DNA of 22,070 nt from NCBI GenBank assembly GCA_049968235.1, contig JBMFRC010000033.1, positions 1 through 22,070 on the forward strand. Reading direction: 5' to 3'. The notes beneath the pieces were generated by a model. It ran no database searches. It worked only from the letters and a program-made list of their open reading frames with translations, and was not told where the DNA came from. Source of the DNA: Candidatus Hydrogenedens sp. Lineage in GTDB: Bacteria > Hydrogenedentota > Hydrogenedentia > Hydrogenedentales > Hydrogenedentaceae. The position numbers and the translations under genes were made by a program. Of the stretch, positions 9,457 to 22,070 are shown piece after piece (positions within the stretch are counted from its first letter, which is position 1; the number at the start of each line of letters is the position of its first letter).

Positions 9457-10314
9457 TTATCTTTTTTGTTCAAGGGCAGAACGGTATTGATTAATTCGTT
9501 CGAGCCATGTGGTAGTGAGGGTAAGCGGGTATACAGTATATCGGGGAGAAGTAGCAGGTTTTGTTTGAAATTCTTTTTCTGCTTCGGGAATCATCTGTCT
9601 GTAACTTATATCTGGTGGGGTGAATTTTGCATTAGAATTTTTAGCGTTAGTAATAAAACGAATAGAACGATTTATATCACTAGCACTTCTTTTCGTCTTT
9701 ACAAGGGTTTTGGGGTCTGTTCCCCACTCATATAAAATCACAGGTCCATTGTTTCCGGTAGCGACACCTGCCATAGATAAATCTGTCCCACTGCGATAAT
9801 CCATCATTGCATCCAGCCAATCAAAGGGAATTCCATAATAATAATCATACGCACCGAATACCCTACCTTCCGAGAAGCCATCATTATATCCATCTGTAAA
9901 ACCCCCATCTAACCATTCCACATGCTTATCTGTTTTGAGGAATGCCTTCCAGTTTGCCTGGTAAGCACAATCATAACCTTCACTAAAACCGATAGTAAAA
10001 GCATAGTCATATTCCACAAAGTAACCATCATTATATGCGAACCATAAACCGTCGTAATACCCTGCATCATAAGGAGGATTTTCTACCTGCGGTATTTGTT
10101 CCCCCTGATAGTATATTGCTCCGCCATTTACAGTATCATAACTATCAAAAAAACCAGTCCAATAGTATTCGTCCTGTGCAAAACCATCATTAAAACCGCG
10201 TTCATATTCTGCATTATCAGTAATTATGGGACACCCTATAAATGCAACTATAATGAGCGGTAAAATTCCTAAATACAGTCTCCGCATTTTGCTCTTTCTG
10301 CTTTCCTGTTTCAT
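9457..10314 (-). CDS. Putative lipoprotein with aromatic/Asp-Gly repeats (hypothetical)
   Basis: The ORF extends to 10368. I place the start at ATG 10314 (MKQESRKSKMRRLYLGILPLIIVAFIGC...) because AAGGAA lies 6 nt upstream. The N-terminus has a positively charged n-region, a hydrophobic h-region and a lipobox-like 'FIGC'. The mature part holds at least 6 copies of G[F/Y]xDG[F/Y/L] and is extremely Tyr/Trp/Asp/Gly-rich. I recognise no homology. It is co-oriented with, and 35 nt downstream of, the 849-aa gene. Confidence 0.6.
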   Translation of the reverse strand: MKQESRKSKMRRLYLGILPLIIVAFIGCPIITDNAEYERGFNDGFAQDEYYWTGFFDSYDTVNGGAIYYQGEQIPQVENPPYDAGYYDGLWFAYNDGYFVEYDYAFTIGFSEGYDCAYQANWKAFLKTDKHVEWLDGGFTDGYNDGFSEGRVFGAYDYYYGIPFDWLDAMMDYRSGTDLSMAGVATGNNGPVILYEWGTDPKTLVKTKRSASDINRSIRFITNAKNSNAKFTPPDISYRQMIPEAEKEFQTKPATSPRYTVYPLTLTTTWLERINQYRSALEQKR

Positions 10315-10348
10315 AATACATTCCTTATATAAAAATTGTTTTAATCTT

Positions 10349-12898
10349 TTATCGTATCCCTCTTCCACCCAGAGAAGACCTGCCGTTTGAGAATCCTGGT
10401 GATTGCCTCTGGAAAGAAGGGGTGCTCGGTGTAGCGAAGGAAGGTGTATTTACTTTCGGTACGGAAAAACTTGATGGAGCGGAATTGCGTTCTATCGGAG
10501 GGGAACTCATTGTCGTAGCAGAGGATGACGGAGGAGTTACAGAGAAACTCCTAGTACTCAAACTGTTTCTATTGAATGATGGAAAAGAAGAAATGGAGTT
10601 TTTATTTGTATTTCTTGAAATCCCGAAAGATGTATTTCCTCTCGGGACATCAGGGACAGAGAAAGACATATCTTTCTGAGGGGGAAGTGTTCGAACGGAA
10701 ATCCCGGAGTTTCCGCTAATGGATGTTCTTTCTGGGAAGATATTCACATTGGCTTCTCTCAAGGTTCCTCTTGAAAATGTTCCTGCTCCTCTATTACCAT
10801 CTGTTGAACGAATTTGAAATTCGGGAACAGATGTGCGTTGAGGTGTTTCATGTTGATTTCTCACAGAGCCATAAGTCCCAATATCTGTTGGCGTTTGTTT
10901 CATATTATCCCAATTTAAGCCGGAACCTCTTGTATTTCCGCGACTACCCGGATTATTACGGTCTGTTGGTATAGAACGCGGAGTAGTATTGTCTCTATCT
11001 CGATTTGTTGTTCCTGACCCTGAATCATTCCGGGGAGTTGTTCGTGTAGGGCTTGTCGTTGAACCACCTCCGGATGGATCATACTCACGGGGTTTCCGTT
11101 CACCATTCATATCCAGTCTTGAAAAAGATGGGGATTCAATCCCTTTGCGGGAAACTCCCTCTGATTGATTGGGTATTTCGGAGAAGGCATTTCTTATTCC
11201 TCTGTTTACTGCAGGTGGGTTTAGAACTCTTGTCGGAGATGATTCCGAACGAAGTGTATTCCTAACATCAGCACTTCGGACGGGAGAACCTATATTTTCA
11301 CGGACAGATTGTATTTGTGTATTTCGCTCTATAGCCCGAGTAAATCCGGTGTCAATTTCTTTACCTCGAATTGAACTACGGTCCGTTGATGAACCTCTTT
11401 GCGAAAGGACTTCGGGAGCGAAACGGGTAGCAGTTGCCTCTGGAGAGGTGGTGTTTAATCTTACCTCACGGAAAGAACTGGAACGCTCATTTAACATAGC
11501 GGTCCGCATAGCGGAAGAAGGCATTCCTGTTTGACTTCGGAAACCTTGTGTCGAGGTTCTTCGTGTAAAATAACTTTCCAATTCTTCTACACGGGCTCGT
11601 GCAAGTATCCCTGAATTATTATAGTTAGCAATACCTCGAATAGTTCTCGGCGGATTATAATCGCGAACCATCGGCATTGAGTTCTGGTAAGGGATGCGTA
11701 TCCTTTGAGAAGGATAGCGTTCTATATTCCAGACATAAACATTTGTTGGATTGTTTATAATGTAATTAACAACTGTAGGTGCCACAGGTGCGATATAGTA
11801 AGGAGATGTATAAACATAAGTTGCAGGGACATAGGAACAGGCACCTACATAAAAGTTTAGACCACCCACCGCAAAACTAACTCCTGTGGAAACTCGAACG
11901 GGCCGGCAATAAAAGTCTACGGGTGTCCAAATAAAATAATCACCACAACGAACCGTAGCCACCCACGCTGGACTCCATACCGGATCATATCCCCAAACCC
12001 AACCATAACTATCATAATAGACCCAACGACCATAGTGTGTGGTGATATATCCGAAAGGATAGGTCTCTACCCAAACGGAACCTATGGGTGATACATAAGT
12101 CCAATATCCTGTCCGATATGGGACATAATTAATAACGACGGTTGGTCTCCAATAATATCGTTCATCAATAAGAACCCAATCTCCATATCGTGATAATTCT
12201 GTATATCCGATTGTCCGATTTGTAACTTCCACATATTTCGGGGGTGTTTTCACGGGAGCAGAGAGTAATTCGGACCGACCTTGATTCCAGCGGTCAAACG
12301 AATCCATTTCAGTTGTTGCAAAGGATACTACTTCAGAGGGCAAATATCCGACATCAACCCAGCATTGTTTACCACTACTTACAACTTCGTTACCTCCGCG
12401 TTCTGTTGTTACATACACCTTTCCCCAGCGTGTCGAAACTCGTGTTGTTCCACTTTCTCCAATGTCTATACGAACACAGGTATCCGGGTCAAAGGTAATG
12501 TTACACGATGGAGTAGTAAAGCGAACGGTCCCAGAACTGCGAAGTACTCTTTCAACATAAAAAGAACCTGTTATACCATATATGGATAGTTCCGGGGAAA
12601 TCTTAACTATTTTTGCTTTAGAAGCATCTGCCATACGGAAGAAGACACCTTCCGGAAATTCAATCTCCGTGCTACCTCCTTTATCCACCCACAATGTATC
12701 CCCTGTTAGCACAAGTGTATTTAAGGTGGCACGGCTCCAATCTTCATCATCCATCCCCCGAATAAGCGTACTTTCGCCATCGTAACTTACCCGCCCATGC
12801 AAAGGGAAGTCTGTATCTGCAAATACCCAGAATGTAGACACGAGTGCCATATTGAATGTAATTACGGCACAAAATTTTGCTATCTTAAAATATTTCAT
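10349..12898 (-). CDS. Secreted FecR-domain protein with Trp/Tyr-rich domain and long Arg/Ser/Thr-rich disordered C-terminal region (hypothetical)
   Basis: A single uninterrupted 849-codon ORF. The N-terminal signal peptide is 'MKYFKIAKFCAVITFNMALVSTFWVFA|DTD'. Residues roughly 30-200 look like a FecR-type beta-sandwich domain. Residues roughly 230-400 are a W/Y-rich segment ('HYGRWVYYDSYGWVWGYDPVWSPAW'). The last roughly 410 aa are low-complexity and rich in R/S/T/N/P/G. Coding status rests on ORF length, far beyond chance, even in the biased tail. Confidence 0.8.
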   Translation of the reverse strand: MKYFKIAKFCAVITFNMALVSTFWVFADTDFPLHGRVSYDGESTLIRGMDDEDWSRATLNTLVLTGDTLWVDKGGSTEIEFPEGVFFRMADASKAKIVKISPELSIYGITGSFYVERVLRSSGTVRFTTPSCNITFDPDTCVRIDIGESGTTRVSTRWGKVYVTTERGGNEVVSSGKQCWVDVGYLPSEVVSFATTEMDSFDRWNQGRSELLSAPVKTPPKYVEVTNRTIGYTELSRYGDWVLIDERYYWRPTVVINYVPYRTGYWTYVSPIGSVWVETYPFGYITTHYGRWVYYDSYGWVWGYDPVWSPAWVATVRCGDYFIWTPVDFYCRPVRVSTGVSFAVGGLNFYVGACSYVPATYVYTSPYYIAPVAPTVVNYIINNPTNVYVWNIERYPSQRIRIPYQNSMPMVRDYNPPRTIRGIANYNNSGILARARVEELESYFTRRTSTQGFRSQTGMPSSAMRTAMLNERSSSFREVRLNTTSPEATATRFAPEVLSQRGSSTDRSSIRGKEIDTGFTRAIERNTQIQSVRENIGSPVRSADVRNTLRSESSPTRVLNPPAVNRGIRNAFSEIPNQSEGVSRKGIESPSFSRLDMNGERKPREYDPSGGGSTTSPTRTTPRNDSGSGTTNRDRDNTTPRSIPTDRNNPGSRGNTRGSGLNWDNMKQTPTDIGTYGSVRNQHETPQRTSVPEFQIRSTDGNRGAGTFSRGTLREANVNIFPERTSISGNSGISVRTLPPQKDMSFSVPDVPRGNTSFGISRNTNKNSISSFPSFNRNSLSTRSFSVTPPSSSATTMSSPPIERNSAPSSFSVPKVNTPSFATPSTPSFQRQSPGFSNGRSSLGGRGIR

Positions 12899-17248: not shown

Positions 17249-18412
17249 ATGCGATATAGAATCTTAAGTTTCACAATCTGTTTTTTTATTTCATCCATTA
17301 TCTTTTGCTCATTTATACATGCTCAAACATTACCTCAGGGAAAAATAAAGGATATTTCTCAATTATGGCAAAAAAATTATAAAGATATATTAAGTGGCTT
17401 CGGGAATATGTATAACTTTCATGTCCTGCATGAACCCGGAGCAGAATATCCCTTTAGGGCATGGTTCTCTGGCTGGGCGTTTGAAGATTGTAACAGAAAT
17501 ATACCCAATTTTAAAGGTTGTGATGCTATCTTTACGGCACGAGCCAAAAAATTGGAGGGGACATGGGAAGTATATGCGGGTGATGATACATGGGATAATA
17601 CAGGAAATCCGAAGTTATGGAAACCTCTCTTTAGCCCCTCCGGTACTTATTTTGACGAATGGCATAATGGAGACCCTTCTGTAATTAAAGTGGGGGAAAA
17701 ATATTATCTGGCATATAGTGCAACTGGACATGATAAAGATCGTATTCCTGCCGACAATCCCAATGATACTGATGGCAGTTTTTACTGTATTATGGGAGCC
17801 ATATCAGAAGATGGGATACACTGGAACCGTTCCGAAAAGCCAATATTAGAGTATACTAACGAGTTAGGCGGTAAAGACAAAACAGGTGATGTTACTTTAT
17901 GGGGCACTTATCATCGACCTTCAATTATATATGAAGATGGCAGATTTAAAATCTGGTTCGATTACTGGACACCTCGTGGAACTGCTATGGGCTATGCGGA
18001 AAATCAAGGGGACTTTTTAAAATCGGAAGACTGGAAATTTATTCGTATAGGAGAAAATCCCTGTATATGGGAATTTCCCAACCCCGATGTTATAAAAGTA
18101 GATGATGTATATTATGCTTATGCAGACCCCGGAGGATACGAGAATCATGAATGGAAAGGACGAAAAATCACAGAAGGCATATCTCGCAATGGTATGGACT
18201 GGCAAATCACAGGATATATAGAACCTGAGTCGGATACACCTGCAACACATGTTCCTGAAGCCCTTGTAATGAGGAAAAATGATAAGAACCTTATCTATCT
18301 TTTCTATTCCTGTCAAATTGGCGGAGAGCCTTCTAAATATAATTTTCGATATAATCGAATCCGTTATATGTACCGCGAAGTCCCACCATCTGAAATAAAA
18401 AAAGGAATATAA
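17249..18412 (+). CDS. Secreted beta-propeller glycoside hydrolase-like protein (GH43/GH130-like clan; family uncertain)
   Basis: Signal peptide 'MRYRILSFTICFFISSIIFCSFIHA|QT'. It has repeated blade-like motifs: 'GDPSVIKVGEKYYLAYSATG', 'GAISEDGIHWNRSEKPIL', 'HRPSIIYEDGRFKIWFD' and 'PDVIKVDDVYYAYAD'. The family assignment is by motif resemblance only. Confidence 0.5.
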   Translation: MRYRILSFTICFFISSIIFCSFIHAQTLPQGKIKDISQLWQKNYKDILSGFGNMYNFHVLHEPGAEYPFRAWFSGWAFEDCNRNIPNFKGCDAIFTARAKKLEGTWEVYAGDDTWDNTGNPKLWKPLFSPSGTYFDEWHNGDPSVIKVGEKYYLAYSATGHDKDRIPADNPNDTDGSFYCIMGAISEDGIHWNRSEKPILEYTNELGGKDKTGDVTLWGTYHRPSIIYEDGRFKIWFDYWTPRGTAMGYAENQGDFLKSEDWKFIRIGENPCIWEFPNPDVIKVDDVYYAYADPGGYENHEWKGRKITEGISRNGMDWQITGYIEPESDTPATHVPEALVMRKNDKNLIYLFYSCQIGGEPSKYNFRYNRIRYMYREVPPSEIKKGI

Positions 18413-18455: not shown

Positions 18456-19472
18456 TTATATCCTTTTTTTAAGAGCATGTTCGACGAATTTCTGTATCAT
18501 TTGTTCATAAGTGATACCCGCACATTTTGCTTCCTGTGGATACAAAGATGTCTGTGTTAACCCCGGAATAGGATTTATTTCTATCCAGACGGGTCCTTCC
18601 TCGTCAATAATAAAATCGCTTCGGCTCCATGTAGAACAGCCAATTGCCTGATGTGCAAGCACAGCCATTTCTTGAACCTTTTGTGTTTGTTCCGGCTCAA
18701 TTGGTGCAGGAGTAATTTCATCCGTAGCACCCGGCGTATACTTCGCTGTATAGTCAAAAAACGAACTCGTTTTAGGGCAAATCTCCGTAACAGGCAAAGC
18801 ACGCGGTGGTATGCCCTCTTCACAATCCCAGACTCCACATGTAACTTCACGCCCATTTATAAATTTCTCTACCAGCACTTCTTTATCCCACTCTAAAGCC
18901 TGTTCAATCCCTTCTAGAAGGGATTCCGCATTTTTTGCTATCGTAACTCCCACACTGGAGCCTTGAGATACAGGTTTTACAACTACAGGGAAACCCAATT
19001 CATTTTCCACACGAAAAACAGAATCGGAACGGTCCCATATCCATGTATCCTGATGGAAAACAACATGGTCAGCAACGCGAATACCTGCTATCTTCGCAAC
19101 CGCCTTGGAACGTACCTTATTCATCGCAAGAGCACATGCAGAACAATCGGAGCCTGTAAACGGAATGTGAAGCCATTCGAGCAATCCCTGAATGCGTCCA
19201 TCCTCACCGAAGGCTCCATGAAGTGCATTAAAAATCACATGAATTCCTATCCGTTTCAATTCAGCAAGGGCTTCTTCTGTTTTCAATATACGTTTCTCCG
19301 GAAATTCCCAATTGAAATTGCGATGGATAATTATAGGAATAGGCTCATATTCTGTTTCGCTTAATGCATGTACCACACCTTCCCCCGACAAAAGCGATAT
19401 TTCATGCTCCGAACTTACGCCACCCATCAATACACCTACCCGTACCAAAGCAGAAGATTTCTTCGGTTTCAT
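18456..19472 (-). CDS. ddl: D-alanine--D-alanine ligase
   Basis: N-terminal 'VGVLMGGVSSEHEISLLSGEGV' and an ATP-grasp core ('EINPIPGLTQTSLYPQ'). Length of 338 aa fits Ddl. Confidence 0.9.
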   Translation of the reverse strand: MKPKKSSALVRVGVLMGGVSSEHEISLLSGEGVVHALSETEYEPIPIIIHRNFNWEFPEKRILKTEEALAELKRIGIHVIFNALHGAFGEDGRIQGLLEWLHIPFTGSDCSACALAMNKVRSKAVAKIAGIRVADHVVFHQDTWIWDRSDSVFRVENELGFPVVVKPVSQGSSVGVTIAKNAESLLEGIEQALEWDKEVLVEKFINGREVTCGVWDCEEGIPPRALPVTEICPKTSSFFDYTAKYTPGATDEITPAPIEPEQTQKVQEMAVLAHQAIGCSTWSRSDFIIDEEGPVWIEINPIPGLTQTSLYPQEAKCAGITYEQMIQKFVEHALKKRI

Positions 19473-19727
19473 AGATATTTTCCTAAAATAAAAGAGAGAA
19501 AAGAATTTTTTTATCTGGGAGAATTATTAAGATAGATTTTATCACTTATCCTGGTAATATCTCAATAATTCATTCTATACCACATTTGCAGGATAAGCCC
19601 TTATATATAAATTTTTTCACACTAGAAGATTTCTATCCCTATTTATTCTAATTGTATATCTACCTTAAAATACTATATTCTATCATTTACCTTGAACTTA
19701 AACATGTAAGAAGATAAGAATTCTATC

Positions 19728-21431
19728 ATGAAAAAAAAAGTGGAAAAGCCGTTAATTGTTCAATCGGACCGTACCATTTTATTAGAGGTCGAAAATCCAT
19801 TATACGAGGAGGCACGGGATGCTCTGTCTGCATTTGCCGAACTGGTAAAATCACCGGAGCATTTTCACACTTATCGGATTACACCAATTTCGCTATGGAA
19901 TTCTGCTTCCGCAGGTTATACTGCAACACAAATTATTGACCTGCTTCAGAAATATAGCCGATATGATGTGCCGTCAAATCTAATTTATGAAATTACAGAT
20001 ACAGTTCGTCGTTATGGCAGACTGAAACTATATAAAAGTCCACAACAGGAACTAATTCTTGAATCCGATGATACTATGCTCCTTTCAGAATTGCTCTACA
20101 ACAAAGCCTTGCAGGAGTTCGGATTAACTAAATTGGATTCGCGTCGGGTTCGTGTGAATACGCAATTTCGTGGGCATTTAAAAAGTGTCCTAGTAAAATT
20201 AGGTTTTCCTGCGGAAGACCTCGCGGGATATGTGGAAGGGGCTCCATTACAATTTGACCTCCGAAAAAAACTGCCATCGGGCAAACCTTTTCTCTTACGA
20301 AATTACCAGACAGATGCTATCTCTGCTTTTTATGCAGGTGGGACAAACCGTGGTGGAAGTGGCGTTATTGTTCTCCCCTGTGGGGCGGGTAAAACCATTG
20401 TCGGAATCGGCGTCATGTATAAACTTCAAACACATACCCTTGTGTTAACAACCAATACAGTGGCACTACGGCAATGGAAAACAGAACTACTTGAAAAAAC
20501 GACACTGACGGAGGACCAAATCGGCGAATATAGCGGAGATATGAAAGAAATTAAACCTGTAACACTGGCGACCTATCAGATTTTAACTCATCGTAAAACA
20601 AAAGATAGCCCTTTTCTCCATTTCCGTTTATTCGAAGATGGTGCCTGGGGATTAATTATCTACGATGAAGTGCATCTACTACCTGCGCCAGTATTCCGTG
20701 CTACGGCAGATTTACAAGCACGCCGAAGATTGGGACTTACCGCTACCTTAGTTCGCGAAGATGGTCGCGAAGATGAAGTATTCAGCCTTATCGGACCTAA
20801 AAAATGCGACATCCCATGGAAAGTATTAGAAAAGCAGGGCTGGATAGCCGAAGCCCTCTGCACCGAAGTGCGCGTGCCAATCATGGAAGACGACCGCTAT
20901 AAATATGTCGTGGCGTCAAAATCCGCCAAATTTCAAATTGCATCAAAAAATCCAATAAAGATAAGTATCTGCAAACAAATTTTAAACCACCACAAAGAGG
21001 ATAATGTCCTCATTATCGGTCAATATTTAGACCAACTTAAAGTTATACAAAAAAACTTCGGCGCACCTATTATTACAGGGCAAACACCCAATAAAAAGAG
21101 AGAAGAACTGTATCAAAAATTCCGTAATGGAGAAATAAAACTTCTGATTGTCTCTAAAGTAGCCAATTTTGCCATTGACCTGCCCGATGCTAATGTCGCC
21201 ATTCAGGTGTCCGGCACCTTCGGTTCACGACAGGAAGAAGCACAGCGATTGGGTAGAATACTCCGCCCAAAAGAATCCGGCAAACAAGCCCACTTCTATA
21301 CTATTGTTACACGCGATACATTGGACCAGGATTATGCTCTCAACCGGCAACTCTTCCTAACTGAACAGGGGTATCAATACAAAATTATTTCTATGGAACA
21401 ATTAAACGAATTTTTTGATAATACAAGATAG
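19728..21431 (+). CDS. XPB/Ssl2(Rad25)-family SF2 DNA repair helicase
   Basis: Q-motif 'LRNYQ', Walker A 'LPCGAGKT' and DEVH box 'IIYDEVHLLPAPVFR'. Motif III is followed by the XPB-specific RED motif ('GLTATLVREDGRE'). Motif VI is 'QVSGTFGSRQEEAQRLGRILR'. An XPB-type N-terminal domain is present ('PLIVQSDRTILLEV...PEHFHTYRITPISLWN...SRYDVP'). It is near co-linear with actinobacterial XPB as I recall it. No obvious RBS; the ATG is followed immediately by an A9 run. Confidence 0.88.
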   Translation: MKKKVEKPLIVQSDRTILLEVENPLYEEARDALSAFAELVKSPEHFHTYRITPISLWNSASAGYTATQIIDLLQKYSRYDVPSNLIYEITDTVRRYGRLKLYKSPQQELILESDDTMLLSELLYNKALQEFGLTKLDSRRVRVNTQFRGHLKSVLVKLGFPAEDLAGYVEGAPLQFDLRKKLPSGKPFLLRNYQTDAISAFYAGGTNRGGSGVIVLPCGAGKTIVGIGVMYKLQTHTLVLTTNTVALRQWKTELLEKTTLTEDQIGEYSGDMKEIKPVTLATYQILTHRKTKDSPFLHFRLFEDGAWGLIIYDEVHLLPAPVFRATADLQARRRLGLTATLVREDGREDEVFSLIGPKKCDIPWKVLEKQGWIAEALCTEVRVPIMEDDRYKYVVASKSAKFQIASKNPIKISICKQILNHHKEDNVLIIGQYLDQLKVIQKNFGAPIITGQTPNKKREELYQKFRNGEIKLLIVSKVANFAIDLPDANVAIQVSGTFGSRQEEAQRLGRILRPKESGKQAHFYTIVTRDTLDQDYALNRQLFLTEQGYQYKIISMEQLNEFFDNTR

Positions 21432-21472
21432 TTAAAAATCTGCAAATTCTAAATAAGAAAAGGAGATTTAAC

Positions 21473-21895
21473 ATGTCTGAAGAAAAAACCGTCTGGTCAG
21501 GAACACCGTCGCAGGTTTTGAATTTCTGGATATTCATCTTTTGCCTGCTTACCTGTTTCCTGGTAGTCCCGATTTTCTACGCTCTCTGGAAATACATTGT
21601 AGTTAAATGCACAAAATATGTAATCACGACCGAAAGAGTTAAAATTACAACGGGTGTATTCTCCACAAGAACAGATTACATGGAGTTGTATCGTATCAAT
21701 GATATAACATTCGAACAACCCCTCCTATTAAGAATATTCTCATTAGGCAACCTAAAATTCACCACAACCGATACCTCGACACCCGAACTTATACTACAAG
21801 CAATACCCGCATCCGAAAATCTCCTAAACGAAGTCCGTAAATGCATTGAAACACAAAGAGACAAAAAACGTGCTCGCGTCGTCGATTTCACATAA
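21473..21895 (+). CDS. Membrane protein with bacterial PH domain (bPH_2 / YdbS-like, DUF304)
   Basis: 140 aa. An N-terminal hydrophobic hairpin ('VLNFWIFIFCLLTCFLVVPIFYALWKYIVV') is followed by a bPH_2-like core ('YVITTERVKITTGVFSTRTDYMELYRINDITFEQPLLLRIFSLGNLKF'). A strong RBS AAAAGGAGA lies 7 nt upstream. It sits 41 nt after the helicase stop. Confidence 0.75.
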   Translation: MSEEKTVWSGTPSQVLNFWIFIFCLLTCFLVVPIFYALWKYIVVKCTKYVITTERVKITTGVFSTRTDYMELYRINDITFEQPLLLRIFSLGNLKFTTTDTSTPELILQAIPASENLLNEVRKCIETQRDKKRARVVDFT

Positions 21896-21934
21896 GTAAA
21901 TATTCATTTCACACCACAACACACAAAGCATAGC

Positions 21935-22012
21935 CCATTAATTCTGCTATTCCCCTCAACAGGTAAATACAAAAATCATATATCCGATTTCAGGGCAAAA
22001 TATGTTTAACCT
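21935..22012. repeat. Imperfect direct repeat, copy B (partner at 10-90)
   Basis: See copy A. It lies downstream of the bPH gene stop (21895). Confidence 0.7.
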
Positions 22013-22070
22013 AAATGTAGAACAGGGATTCTGTCTGTATTTTACAATCACAAGCGAGATGCTTGTGTTC

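What the first reader, a model, noticed from the sequence alone, without database searches (positions are those of the whole stretch)
19728..21895. Bacterial XPB(Ssl2)-type helicase possibly co-transcribed with a bPH_2 membrane protein
The helicase carries the XPB-specific RED motif and the XPB N-terminal damage-recognition-like domain, and it is very close to actinobacterial XPB as I recall it. Bacterial XPB homologues are sporadically distributed and best known from Actinobacteria. In archaea the XPB partner is the Bax1 nuclease, and no bacterial partner is established. Here the gene sits in a lower-GC, apparently non-actinobacterial context. A 140-aa YdbS-like bacterial-PH membrane protein follows 41 nt downstream with a strong RBS, which suggests co-transcription. 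A membrane-tethered PH-domain protein paired with an XPB helicase is not a described arrangement. It could indicate membrane-associated DNA processing or a defence-like function, or simply HGT-derived repair.
Basis: partly seen in the sequence, partly recalled or inferred. Interest (0 to 1): 0.55.

Follow-up and report, generated by a model that had tools for sequence, protein, structure and literature searches.

The report
XPB helicase beside unrelated membrane protein
The window carries a genuine bacterial XPB repair helicase followed by a small membrane-anchored PH-domain gene, but the two sit together only in one genus of an uncultured phylum, so the pairing is most likely an ordinary accident of gene order.

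Summary
Both genes are real and correctly identified. XPB (19728-21431) scores 880 bits against NCBIfam's XPB equivalog (cut-off 610) and has intact SF2 and RED motifs. The 140-aa protein (21473-21895) is a bPH_2 protein with one hydrophobic anchor. It starts 41 nt downstream, has an AAGGAG ribosome-binding site, and no terminator-like site lies between. The contig is from Candidatus Hydrogenedens (Hydrogenedentota), 40% GC, in a housekeeping context.

The proposed functional pair is not supported. The adjacency occurs only in the five closest species (XPB at least 89% identical). It is absent in the sister clade, where one assembly carries both genes on different contigs of 0.9 Mb or more. 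It is also absent from about 95 other XPB loci and from three bPH orthologue contexts. Transfer from Actinobacteria is not supported either: XPB groups with the phylum and matches the local GC.

Two side results are more interesting than the finding. In other Hydrogenedentota, XPB heads a conserved xpb-addB-addA cluster. In most other bacteria, XPB lies next to a protein resembling TFIIH p52/Tfb2. The held literature describes no bacterial XPB partner.

The parts
19650..19683 (+). Conserved upstream element AATTGTATAY-N8-AAWTRMTWTATYCTAT, about 45 nt before the XPB start codon. It contains a -35-like TTGTAT (19652-19657) and a -10-like TATATT (19674-19679) 16 nt apart. It is the putative promoter or operator of the xpb(-bPH) transcription unit.
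   Evidence: It is the only conserved non-coding block upstream of XPB in the window and L001-L004. It matches once in each of those loci and in none of the other 99 loci. It occurs once in the window even with 3 mismatches, against 0 expected. The pattern was derived from these same sequences. Promoter function is inferred, and the generic scan did not list it.
19728..21431 (+). XPB (ERCC3/Ssl2/Rad25-type) SF2 DNA helicase/translocase, 567 aa. It has the XPB N-terminal domain (9-136), RecA1 with GAGKT, DEVH and RED (R343-E344-D345), and RecA2 with motif VI QRLGRILR.
   Evidence: NCBIfam NF045503 at 880 bits against a cut-off of 610. Pfam domains. Invariant motifs. Best PDB sequence matches are yeast and human XPB at E 5e-86 to 2e-85, covering residues 6-555 against the human construct 8ebt_A.
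21432..21472 (+). 41-nt AT-rich intergenic spacer with the ribosome-binding site AAGGAG at 21460-21465.
   Evidence: Read directly from the sequence. No terminator-like or + strand promoter-like site. In relatives the spacer is 77, 42, 379 and 40 nt, and nothing is conserved except the RBS.
21473..21895 (+). bPH_2 (YdbS/YdbT-type bacterial PH domain) membrane protein, 140 aa. It has a hydrophobic anchor at about residues 15-45 and a PH domain at 45-119.
   Evidence: Pfam PF03703 at 59.1 bits against a cut-off of 22. Hydropathy maximum 2.7 over 19 residues. A 100% identical NCBI protein is named 'PH domain-containing protein [Candidatus Hydrogenedens sp.]' and sits on a 22,070-bp contig.

Best explanation
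The window is a housekeeping stretch of a Candidatus Hydrogenedens chromosome. XPB is an orthologous, vertically inherited member of the bacterial XPB family. Following the characterised mycobacterial and TFIIH enzymes, it should be an ATP-driven 3'->5' DNA translocase/helicase that opens duplex DNA during repair or recombination. This activity is inferred, not shown. In the rest of its phylum the same gene is the first gene of an xpb-addB-addA cluster. That points to work alongside the AddAB-type double-strand-break end-processing helicase-nuclease, again by inference. In the low-GC Hydrogenedens lineage that linkage was broken. In one sub-clade a pre-existing small membrane protein gene (bPH_2) came to lie downstream. 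The bPH gene is probably read from the XPB promoter because it sits 41 nt behind with its own RBS. The two products most likely act independently: XPB on DNA, and bPH at the membrane like other YdbS/YdbT-type proteins.
For: The neighbourhood is housekeeping (glutamate synthase, 3-dehydroquinate synthase, D-Ala-D-Ala ligase, Gfo/Idh/MocA oxidoreductase), with no integrase, tRNA, Rfam hit or flanking repeats. GC content matches the contig. Vertical inheritance is supported by the gradient of named hits, from Hydrogenedens at 97% down to Hydrogenedentota at 67-70%. The NJ tree places the window clade and the 82% clade as sister to the AddBA-linked Hydrogenedentota clade, with Sumerlaeota next and the high-GC loci distant. 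The adjacency is recent and restricted: it is present in 5 of 5 loci with XPB at least 89% identical and absent in L005, L008 and L097 at 82%. Assembly GCA_017880035.1 carries XPB (P0016) on a 1.43-Mb contig and the bPH orthologue (P0133, 75% identical) on a different 0.94-Mb contig. There was no bPH hit in the other loci. bPH orthologues at 53% and 45% identity sit next to lipase/flavodoxin or cupin genes. The spacer is 379 nt in L003. bPH diverges faster than XPB, 72-86% against 89-97% identity. The xpb-addB-addA cluster was found in 6 of 6 looked-up XPBs at 67-70% identity, plus L007 and L017, with different upstream genes and gaps from an overlapping stop/start to 44 nt in the six looked-up loci and L017. 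PADLOC gave nothing beyond generic helicase similarity. Published bPH_2 roles are envelope or bacteriocin related.
Against: Within the genus the XPB-bPH junction is the only junction kept in all five species. Downstream flanks all differ and the upstream ddl gene is shared by only three. That is the pattern an operon under selection would show. Short spacers with a strong RBS and no terminator in four of five species fit co-transcription, and co-transcribed genes are often related. I could not examine the whole genome, so the locations of AddAB or a p52-like partner in this organism are unknown. The NJ tree has no support values.
Confidence: 0.75

Rival explanations
1. XPB and the bPH_2 protein form a genuine genus-specific two-gene operon whose products work together. 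For example, the membrane-anchored PH domain could recruit or regulate XPB at the membrane. This might replace the partner (p52-like or AddAB) that XPB has in other lineages.
For: The pair is retained in 5 of 5 Hydrogenedens-level species although both flanks are rearranged. The gap is 40-77 nt in four of them, with an RBS and no terminator. A conserved upstream element is found only in the clade that has the pair. No p52-like partner or AddAB gene lies in the 22-kb window.
Against: Both genes exist but are unlinked in the sister lineage. No other XPB locus of about 95 has a bPH neighbour. bPH orthologues elsewhere have unrelated neighbours. L003 has a 379-nt spacer. The two proteins evolve at very different rates. 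Five species at 76-85% nucleotide identity are a small, closely related sample.
Confidence: 0.12
2. The helicase was acquired by horizontal transfer from Actinobacteria and is a foreign repair gene in this genome.
For: Bacterial XPBs are highly conserved (55-66% identity to all 80 metagenomic loci), so the protein does look similar to XPBs of high-GC organisms. The older literature knew XPB mainly from actinobacteria and spirochaetes.
Against: The nearest relatives form an identity gradient inside Hydrogenedentota. In the NJ tree the window groups with its phylum and then with Sumerlaeota, while loci of 65-75% GC lie elsewhere. The gene's GC (41.8%) matches the contig's (39.6%). The gene has orthologues in every sampled branch of the phylum. 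I had no labelled actinobacterial sequence, so actinobacterial origin was judged only from GC content.
Confidence: 0.03
3. The pair is part of an anti-phage defence system or a mobile element.
For: SF2 helicases with accessory small proteins are common in defence islands. XPB shows partial similarity to PbeA helicase models (E 3e-24, helicase core only).
Against: The PADLOC hits cover only generic helicase motifs, and bPH has no PADLOC hit. The neighbours are core metabolism and cell-wall genes. There is no integrase, tRNA or flanking repeat. The XPB equivalog score is far above its cut-off.
Confidence: 0.03

Closest known systems
Mycobacterium tuberculosis XPB (Rv0861c), the biochemically characterised bacterial XPB (PMC3353954)
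   Same: Same domain plan: an XPB-specific N-terminal domain, two RecA-like domains and a RED motif, with no eukaryotic C-terminal extension. The window protein passes the NCBIfam equivalog for this family.
   Different: It comes from a different phylum (Hydrogenedentota, 40% GC). Identity to actinobacterial sequences was not measured directly, and no biochemistry exists for this protein.
Eukaryotic XPB/Ssl2 in TFIIH, with its partner p52/Tfb2
   Same: These are the best solved-structure matches by sequence (E 5e-86 to 2e-85), aligning from the N-terminal domain to the end of RecA2. The N-terminal domain is the one that pairs with the p52 clutch in TFIIH (PMC6422496).
   Different: No p52-like gene lies in the window. 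There are no eukaryotic insertions or C-terminal tail, and no TFIIH context.
Archaeal XPB-Bax1 helicase-nuclease
   Same: An XPB helicase encoded next to a candidate partner gene.
   Different: The neighbour here is a bPH_2 membrane protein, not a nuclease. Archaeal XPBs match much more weakly (E 1e-47, helicase core only) and, per PMC3353954, carry a different N-terminal domain.
Bacillus subtilis YdbS/YdbT and the PH-domain proteins of leaderless-bacteriocin loci (PMC8657885, PMC3498285)
   Same: A small membrane-anchored protein with a bPH_2 domain.
   Different: Single-domain, 140 aa. There is no sigma-W or bacteriocin context here, and its function in this organism is unknown.
xpb-addB-addA clusters of other Hydrogenedentota (L007, L012-L017, L099-L103)
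   Same: The XPB is orthologous at 66-70% identity, and this clade is sister to the window's in the NJ tree.
   Different: In the window's lineage the AddAB-type genes are not adjacent, and none lie within 22 kb.

Membership tests
Bacterial XPB (NCBIfam NF045503 repair_heli_XPB; ERCC3/Rad25/Ssl2 family) | Full-length match above the curated equivalog cut-off | tested here: met
   880.1 bits against a cut-off of 610, covering residues 8-553 and profile positions 1-547 of 548.
Bacterial XPB (NCBIfam NF045503 repair_heli_XPB; ERCC3/Rad25/Ssl2 family) | XPB-specific N-terminal domain (Pfam PF13625) | tested here: met
   Residues 9-136, E 2e-39, 134.9 bits against a cut-off of 34.2. It aligns to the yeast and human XPB N-terminal domains.
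Bacterial XPB (NCBIfam NF045503 repair_heli_XPB; ERCC3/Rad25/Ssl2 family) | Intact SF2 catalytic motifs (Walker A GxGKT, DExH, motif III, motif VI) | tested here: met
   GAGKT 219-223, DEVH 313-316, TAT 338-340 and QRLGRILR 506-513 are all invariant columns in A1.
Bacterial XPB (NCBIfam NF045503 repair_heli_XPB; ERCC3/Rad25/Ssl2 family) | RED motif after motif III | tested here: met
   R343-E344-D345, invariant in 11 sequences.
Bacterial XPB (NCBIfam NF045503 repair_heli_XPB; ERCC3/Rad25/Ssl2 family) | Thumb (ThM) insertion in RecA2 | not tested
   No structural model of this protein was made. PMC3353954 reports that ThM is shortened or absent in bacterial and eukaryotic XPBs, so it does not define this branch.
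Bacterial XPB (NCBIfam NF045503 repair_heli_XPB; ERCC3/Rad25/Ssl2 family) | DNA-dependent ATPase and 3'->5' helicase activity | not testable with these tools
   Requires biochemistry.
bPH_2 / YdbS-YdbT-type bacterial PH-domain membrane proteins (PF03703) | bPH_2 domain above Pfam's gathering score | tested here: met
   59.1 bits against a cut-off of 22, residues 45-119, profile positions 2-76 of 78.
bPH_2 / YdbS-YdbT-type bacterial PH-domain membrane proteins (PF03703) | N-terminal hydrophobic membrane anchor before the PH domain | tested here: met
   A hydrophobic run at about residues 15-45, with a Kyte-Doolittle 19-residue maximum of 2.7. Topology was not determined.
Archaeal-type XPB-Bax1 helicase-nuclease pair | A Bax1 nuclease gene adjacent to XPB | tested here: not met
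   The neighbours are D-Ala-D-Ala ligase (divergent) and bPH_2. There is no nuclease domain.
XPB + p52/Tfb2-like 'helicase-associated domain' partner module (seen in 49 of 80 metagenomic XPB loci) | A neighbouring protein of about 650-930 aa with a C-terminal PF13625 (clutch-like) domain | tested here: not met
   An HMM of 27 partners found no hit in the window or in any Hydrogenedentota locus.
xpb-addB-addA cluster of Hydrogenedentota | AddB-like and AddA-like genes directly downstream of XPB | tested here: not met
   tblastn found no AddA or AddB similarity in the window (typing). bPH_2 follows instead.
Known anti-phage defence systems (PADLOC-DB v2) | Full-length match of the components to a defence-system model | tested here: not met
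   There are only partial helicase-core hits to PbeA models, and none for bPH.

The most novel reading that the evidence does not exclude
In the genus Candidatus Hydrogenedens, XPB lost both partners seen elsewhere (the p52/Tfb2-like protein of most bacteria and the AddAB linkage of its own phylum). It then acquired a membrane-anchored bPH_2 protein as a new operon partner. This would give a membrane-associated XPB machine with no described counterpart.
Probability: 0.1. Interest if true: 0.5.

Novelty: already known. Interest (0 to 1): 0.18.

Why it matters
The finding itself matters little. It is a correctly recognised XPB orthologue next to an unrelated small membrane protein, in a gene order confined to one genus.

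The comparative survey needed to show this produced two leads on an open question, namely what bacterial XPB does and with whom. First, across Hydrogenedentota, xpb is the first gene of a conserved xpb-addB-addA cluster, which suggests a role at double-strand breaks. Second, in most other bacterial XPB loci the neighbour is a protein whose sequence profile and predicted fold match TFIIH p52/Tfb2. This implies that the XPB-p52 module of eukaryotic TFIIH has a bacterial counterpart. The papers I could read say no such homologue or partner is known.

Tried and rejected
1. I looked for a mobile cassette or island. tRNA genes, Rfam families and flanking direct or inverted repeats were all negative. 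Nucleotide homology to relatives ends at the coding sequences, as expected for diverged species rather than a cassette.

2. PADLOC showed only generic helicase-core similarity.

3. I looked for a small transmembrane ORF that follows distant bPH homologues. It is not found downstream in the window or in L001-L004.

4. The generic sigma-70 and terminator scan of 19300-22070 found fewer sites than in shuffles and nothing in the spacer.

5. Literature searches for a bacterial XPB partner, Rv0862c, XPB with AddAB, and Hydrogenedentota DNA repair found nothing relevant.

6. My first genome-contig scan used a single protein and returned only 8 loci.

8. A direct comparison with a labelled actinobacterial XPB was not possible, because none was returned by the capped searches.
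Full report
**What is there**

The window has two co-directional ORFs at exactly the stated coordinates: 19728..21431 (567 aa) and 21473..21895 (140 aa). They are separated by 41 nt that contain AAGGAG 7 nt before the second ATG.

The first protein is XPB by every test I could run:
- It scores 880 bits against the NCBIfam equivalog NF045503 repair_heli_XPB, whose cut-off is 610, and the match is end to end.
- Pfam finds the XPB N-terminal domain PF13625 (residues 9-136), ResIII and ERCC3_RAD25_C.
- The catalytic motifs GAGKT, DEVH, TAT and QRLGRILR and the RED motif (R343-E344-D345) are intact. All are invariant in an 11-sequence alignment.
- Its best solved-structure relatives by sequence are yeast and human XPB (E 5e-86 to 2e-85). 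Archaeal XPBs match only through the helicase core (E 1e-47).

The second protein carries a bPH_2 domain (59 bits against a cut-off of 22). The domain follows one hydrophobic stretch of about 30 residues. I did not test the ThM motif. PMC3353954 states that it is shortened or missing in bacterial and eukaryotic XPBs, so it should not be used as a refutation criterion.

**Whose genome, and is the gene foreign?**

A bPH protein 100% identical to the window's is recorded by NCBI from a 'Candidatus Hydrogenedens sp.' MAG on a contig of 22,070 bp, which is the window's length. The best genome locus is Ca. Hydrogenedens terephthalaticus, with XPB 97% identical.

The surroundings are core metabolism and cell-wall genes: carbonic anhydrase, aldehyde dehydrogenase, glutamate synthase large and small subunits, PP2C phosphatase, 3-dehydroquinate synthase, a Gfo/Idh/MocA oxidoreductase and D-Ala-D-Ala ligase. 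There are no tRNAs, no Rfam hits and no flanking repeats. GC is 39.6% for the window, 41.8% for XPB and 39.7% for bPH.

Named homologues fall off smoothly from Hydrogenedens (89-97%) to other Hydrogenedentota (67-70%). I built a neighbour-joining tree of 95 XPBs (midpoint-rooted, no support values). In it the window's clade and an 82%-identity low-GC clade are sister to the remaining Hydrogenedentota. The next group out was later identified as Sumerlaeota, and loci of 65-75% GC lie elsewhere. This argues for vertical inheritance within the phylum and against recent transfer from Actinobacteria. One caveat is that I had no labelled actinobacterial sequence.

**Is XPB-bPH a conserved pair?**

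No. The evidence runs in both directions.

*Starting from XPB:*

| XPB identity to window | Loci | What follows XPB |
|---|---|---|
| 89-100% | window, L001-L004 | bPH_2 |
| 82% | L005, L008, L097 | a convergent 281-297-aa gene and an oligopeptide ABC transporter |
| 66-70% | L007, L012-L017, L099-L103 | AddB-like and AddA-like genes |
| 55-66% | 80 metagenomic loci (L017-L096) | no bPH in any |

*Starting from bPH:* orthologues at 75%, 53% and 45% identity sit among unrelated genes.

The sharpest test is assembly GCA_017880035.1. It carries XPB (P0016) on contig JAEDZT010003239.1 (1.43 Mb) and the bPH orthologue (P0133) on contig JAEDZT010000482.1 (0.94 Mb). Both genes therefore exist in the sister lineage without being linked. 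The adjacency arose by rearrangement of pre-existing genes in one sub-clade.

Other points fit independence:
- The spacer length varies (41, 77, 42, 379 and 40 nt), and only the RBS is conserved.
- bPH diverges much faster than XPB (72-86% against 89-97% identity).

**What speaks for the pair?**

Within the five congeneric species (76-85% nucleotide identity over the two genes), the XPB-bPH junction is the only one always kept. The DNA downstream of bPH is unrelated in every comparison, and the upstream ddl gene is shared by only three.

A 34-nt element lies about 45 nt upstream of XPB (19650-19683). It has -35-like and -10-like hexamers 16 nt apart and is conserved in exactly these five loci. 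It is found nowhere else in the window or in the other loci. No comparable element precedes bPH.

Co-transcription from the XPB promoter is therefore plausible in the window. That is weak evidence for a shared function, and I give the functional-pair reading about 0.12.

**How it most likely works**

XPB should act as an ATP-driven DNA translocase/helicase in repair or recombination. This is inferred from family membership and from the mycobacterial and TFIIH enzymes.

The best contextual clue comes from the rest of its phylum. In 6 of 6 looked-up XPBs at 67-70% identity, plus L007 and L017, xpb is followed by an AddB-like gene (ADDB_N + PDDEXK_1, about 1,050 aa) and an AddA-like gene (UvrD helicase + PDDEXK_1, about 1,120 aa). 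In the six looked-up loci and L017 the gap ranges from an overlapping stop/start to 44 nt. Four of the loci also have a Peptidase_MA_2 gene next. The upstream genes differ from locus to locus. The best NCBIfam matches of these two proteins are AddB and AddA, but far below the equivalog cut-offs.

This suggests a role beside the double-strand-break end-processing machine. In the window's lineage those genes are simply no longer adjacent, and none lies within the 22 kb.

bPH_2 proteins with any published role act at the envelope, in the sigma-W regulon and in bacteriocin transport or immunity. I assume the same general kind of role here. PADLOC gives no support for a defence system.

**Noticed on the way: a p52-like partner**

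In 49 of the 80 metagenomic loci, XPB has a neighbour of about 650-930 aa whose C-terminal part carries PF13625, the same domain as XPB's own N-terminus. The neighbour is usually directly downstream, often with overlapping stop and start. In many loci two such genes lie in tandem, and in others the gene lies upstream.

A profile of 18 of these proteins finds TFIIH p52 as its best solved-structure match (8ebt_D, E 5e-9, aligned to p52 residues 288-357). That stretch overlaps the 'clutch' domain (p52 residues 306-399) that pairs with the XPB N-terminal domain. Yeast Tfb2 follows (E 8e-8), and both rank ahead of XPB itself (PMC6422496).

The Sumerlaeota versions are annotated 'helicase-associated domain-containing protein'. 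Some reach Pfam's Tfb2 model (P0229: 36.3 bits against a cut-off of 34.5).

An AlphaFold model of one of them has mean pLDDT 83. Its top 14 Foldseek matches in the PDB are p52/Tfb2 chains (E 1e-7 to 2e-5, alignments of 547-614 columns). XPB N-terminal domains come next, and a WYL-type domain (CapW, BrxR, DriD, PafBC) matches at the C-terminus. TM-scores are low, as expected for a flexible multi-domain chain.

[quoted passage not shown] None of these partners occurs in the Hydrogenedentota loci.

**Verdict**

The XPB is an ordinary, vertically inherited orthologue. The bPH gene is a lineage-specific neighbour that is probably co-transcribed but most likely functionally unrelated. Interest in the finding itself is low. 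The two comparative leads lie outside the window and deserve their own follow-up.

Noticed in passing
L012 5001-11692; L014 5001-11716; L015 5001-11683; L099 8001-17359; L101 8001-17172; L102 8001-17194; also L007 and L017: In Hydrogenedentota whose XPB is 66-70% identical to the window's, xpb is the first gene of a conserved xpb - addB-like - addA-like cluster, followed in four loci by a Peptidase_MA_2 gene. In the six looked-up loci and L017 the gap ranges from an overlapping stop/start to 44 nt, and the upstream genes differ between loci. I found no paper linking XPB with AddAB.
   Followed up: partly
e.g. L035 9821-12076 and 12073-14427; L042 2253-4604 and 4601-6913; L019 9697-11892 and 11889-14153; L018 3260-6061 (Sumerlaeota); 49 of the 80 loci L017-L096: Most other bacterial XPB loci encode one or two adjacent 'helicase-associated domain' proteins. 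Their sequence profile best matches the TFIIH p52/Tfb2 clutch domain (E 5e-9). The AlphaFold model of one (pLDDT 83) has p52/Tfb2 chains as its top Foldseek PDB hits and a WYL-like C-terminal domain. The literature I read states that no bacterial p52 homologue or XPB partner is known.
   Followed up: partly
window 19650-19683: A 34-nt element upstream of XPB (AATTGTATAY-N8-AAWTRMTWTATYCTAT) is conserved only in the five species that also have bPH downstream. It is absent from the 82%-identity clade and from the rest of the window. It is possibly a promoter or operator.
   Followed up: partly
L009 1821-1994; the JGI and ENA places listed: Distant bPH_2 homologues (45-53% identity) are followed within about 10-25 nt by a small 57-66-aa hydrophobic ORF. 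No counterpart is detectable after bPH in the window or in L001-L004.
   Followed up: partly
window 17249-18412 (+) and 9457-10368 (-): Two sizeable ORFs (387 aa with an N-terminal signal-like hydrophobic stretch, and 303 aa) have no Pfam match. The 387-aa gene is not syntenic in L002 or L003, although the adjacent ddl is.
   Followed up: no
L003 7693-8071: In this relative the XPB-bPH spacer is 379 nt instead of about 40 nt and contains a TTGACA hexamer. I did not determine whether this reflects an insertion or an independent bPH promoter.
   Followed up: no
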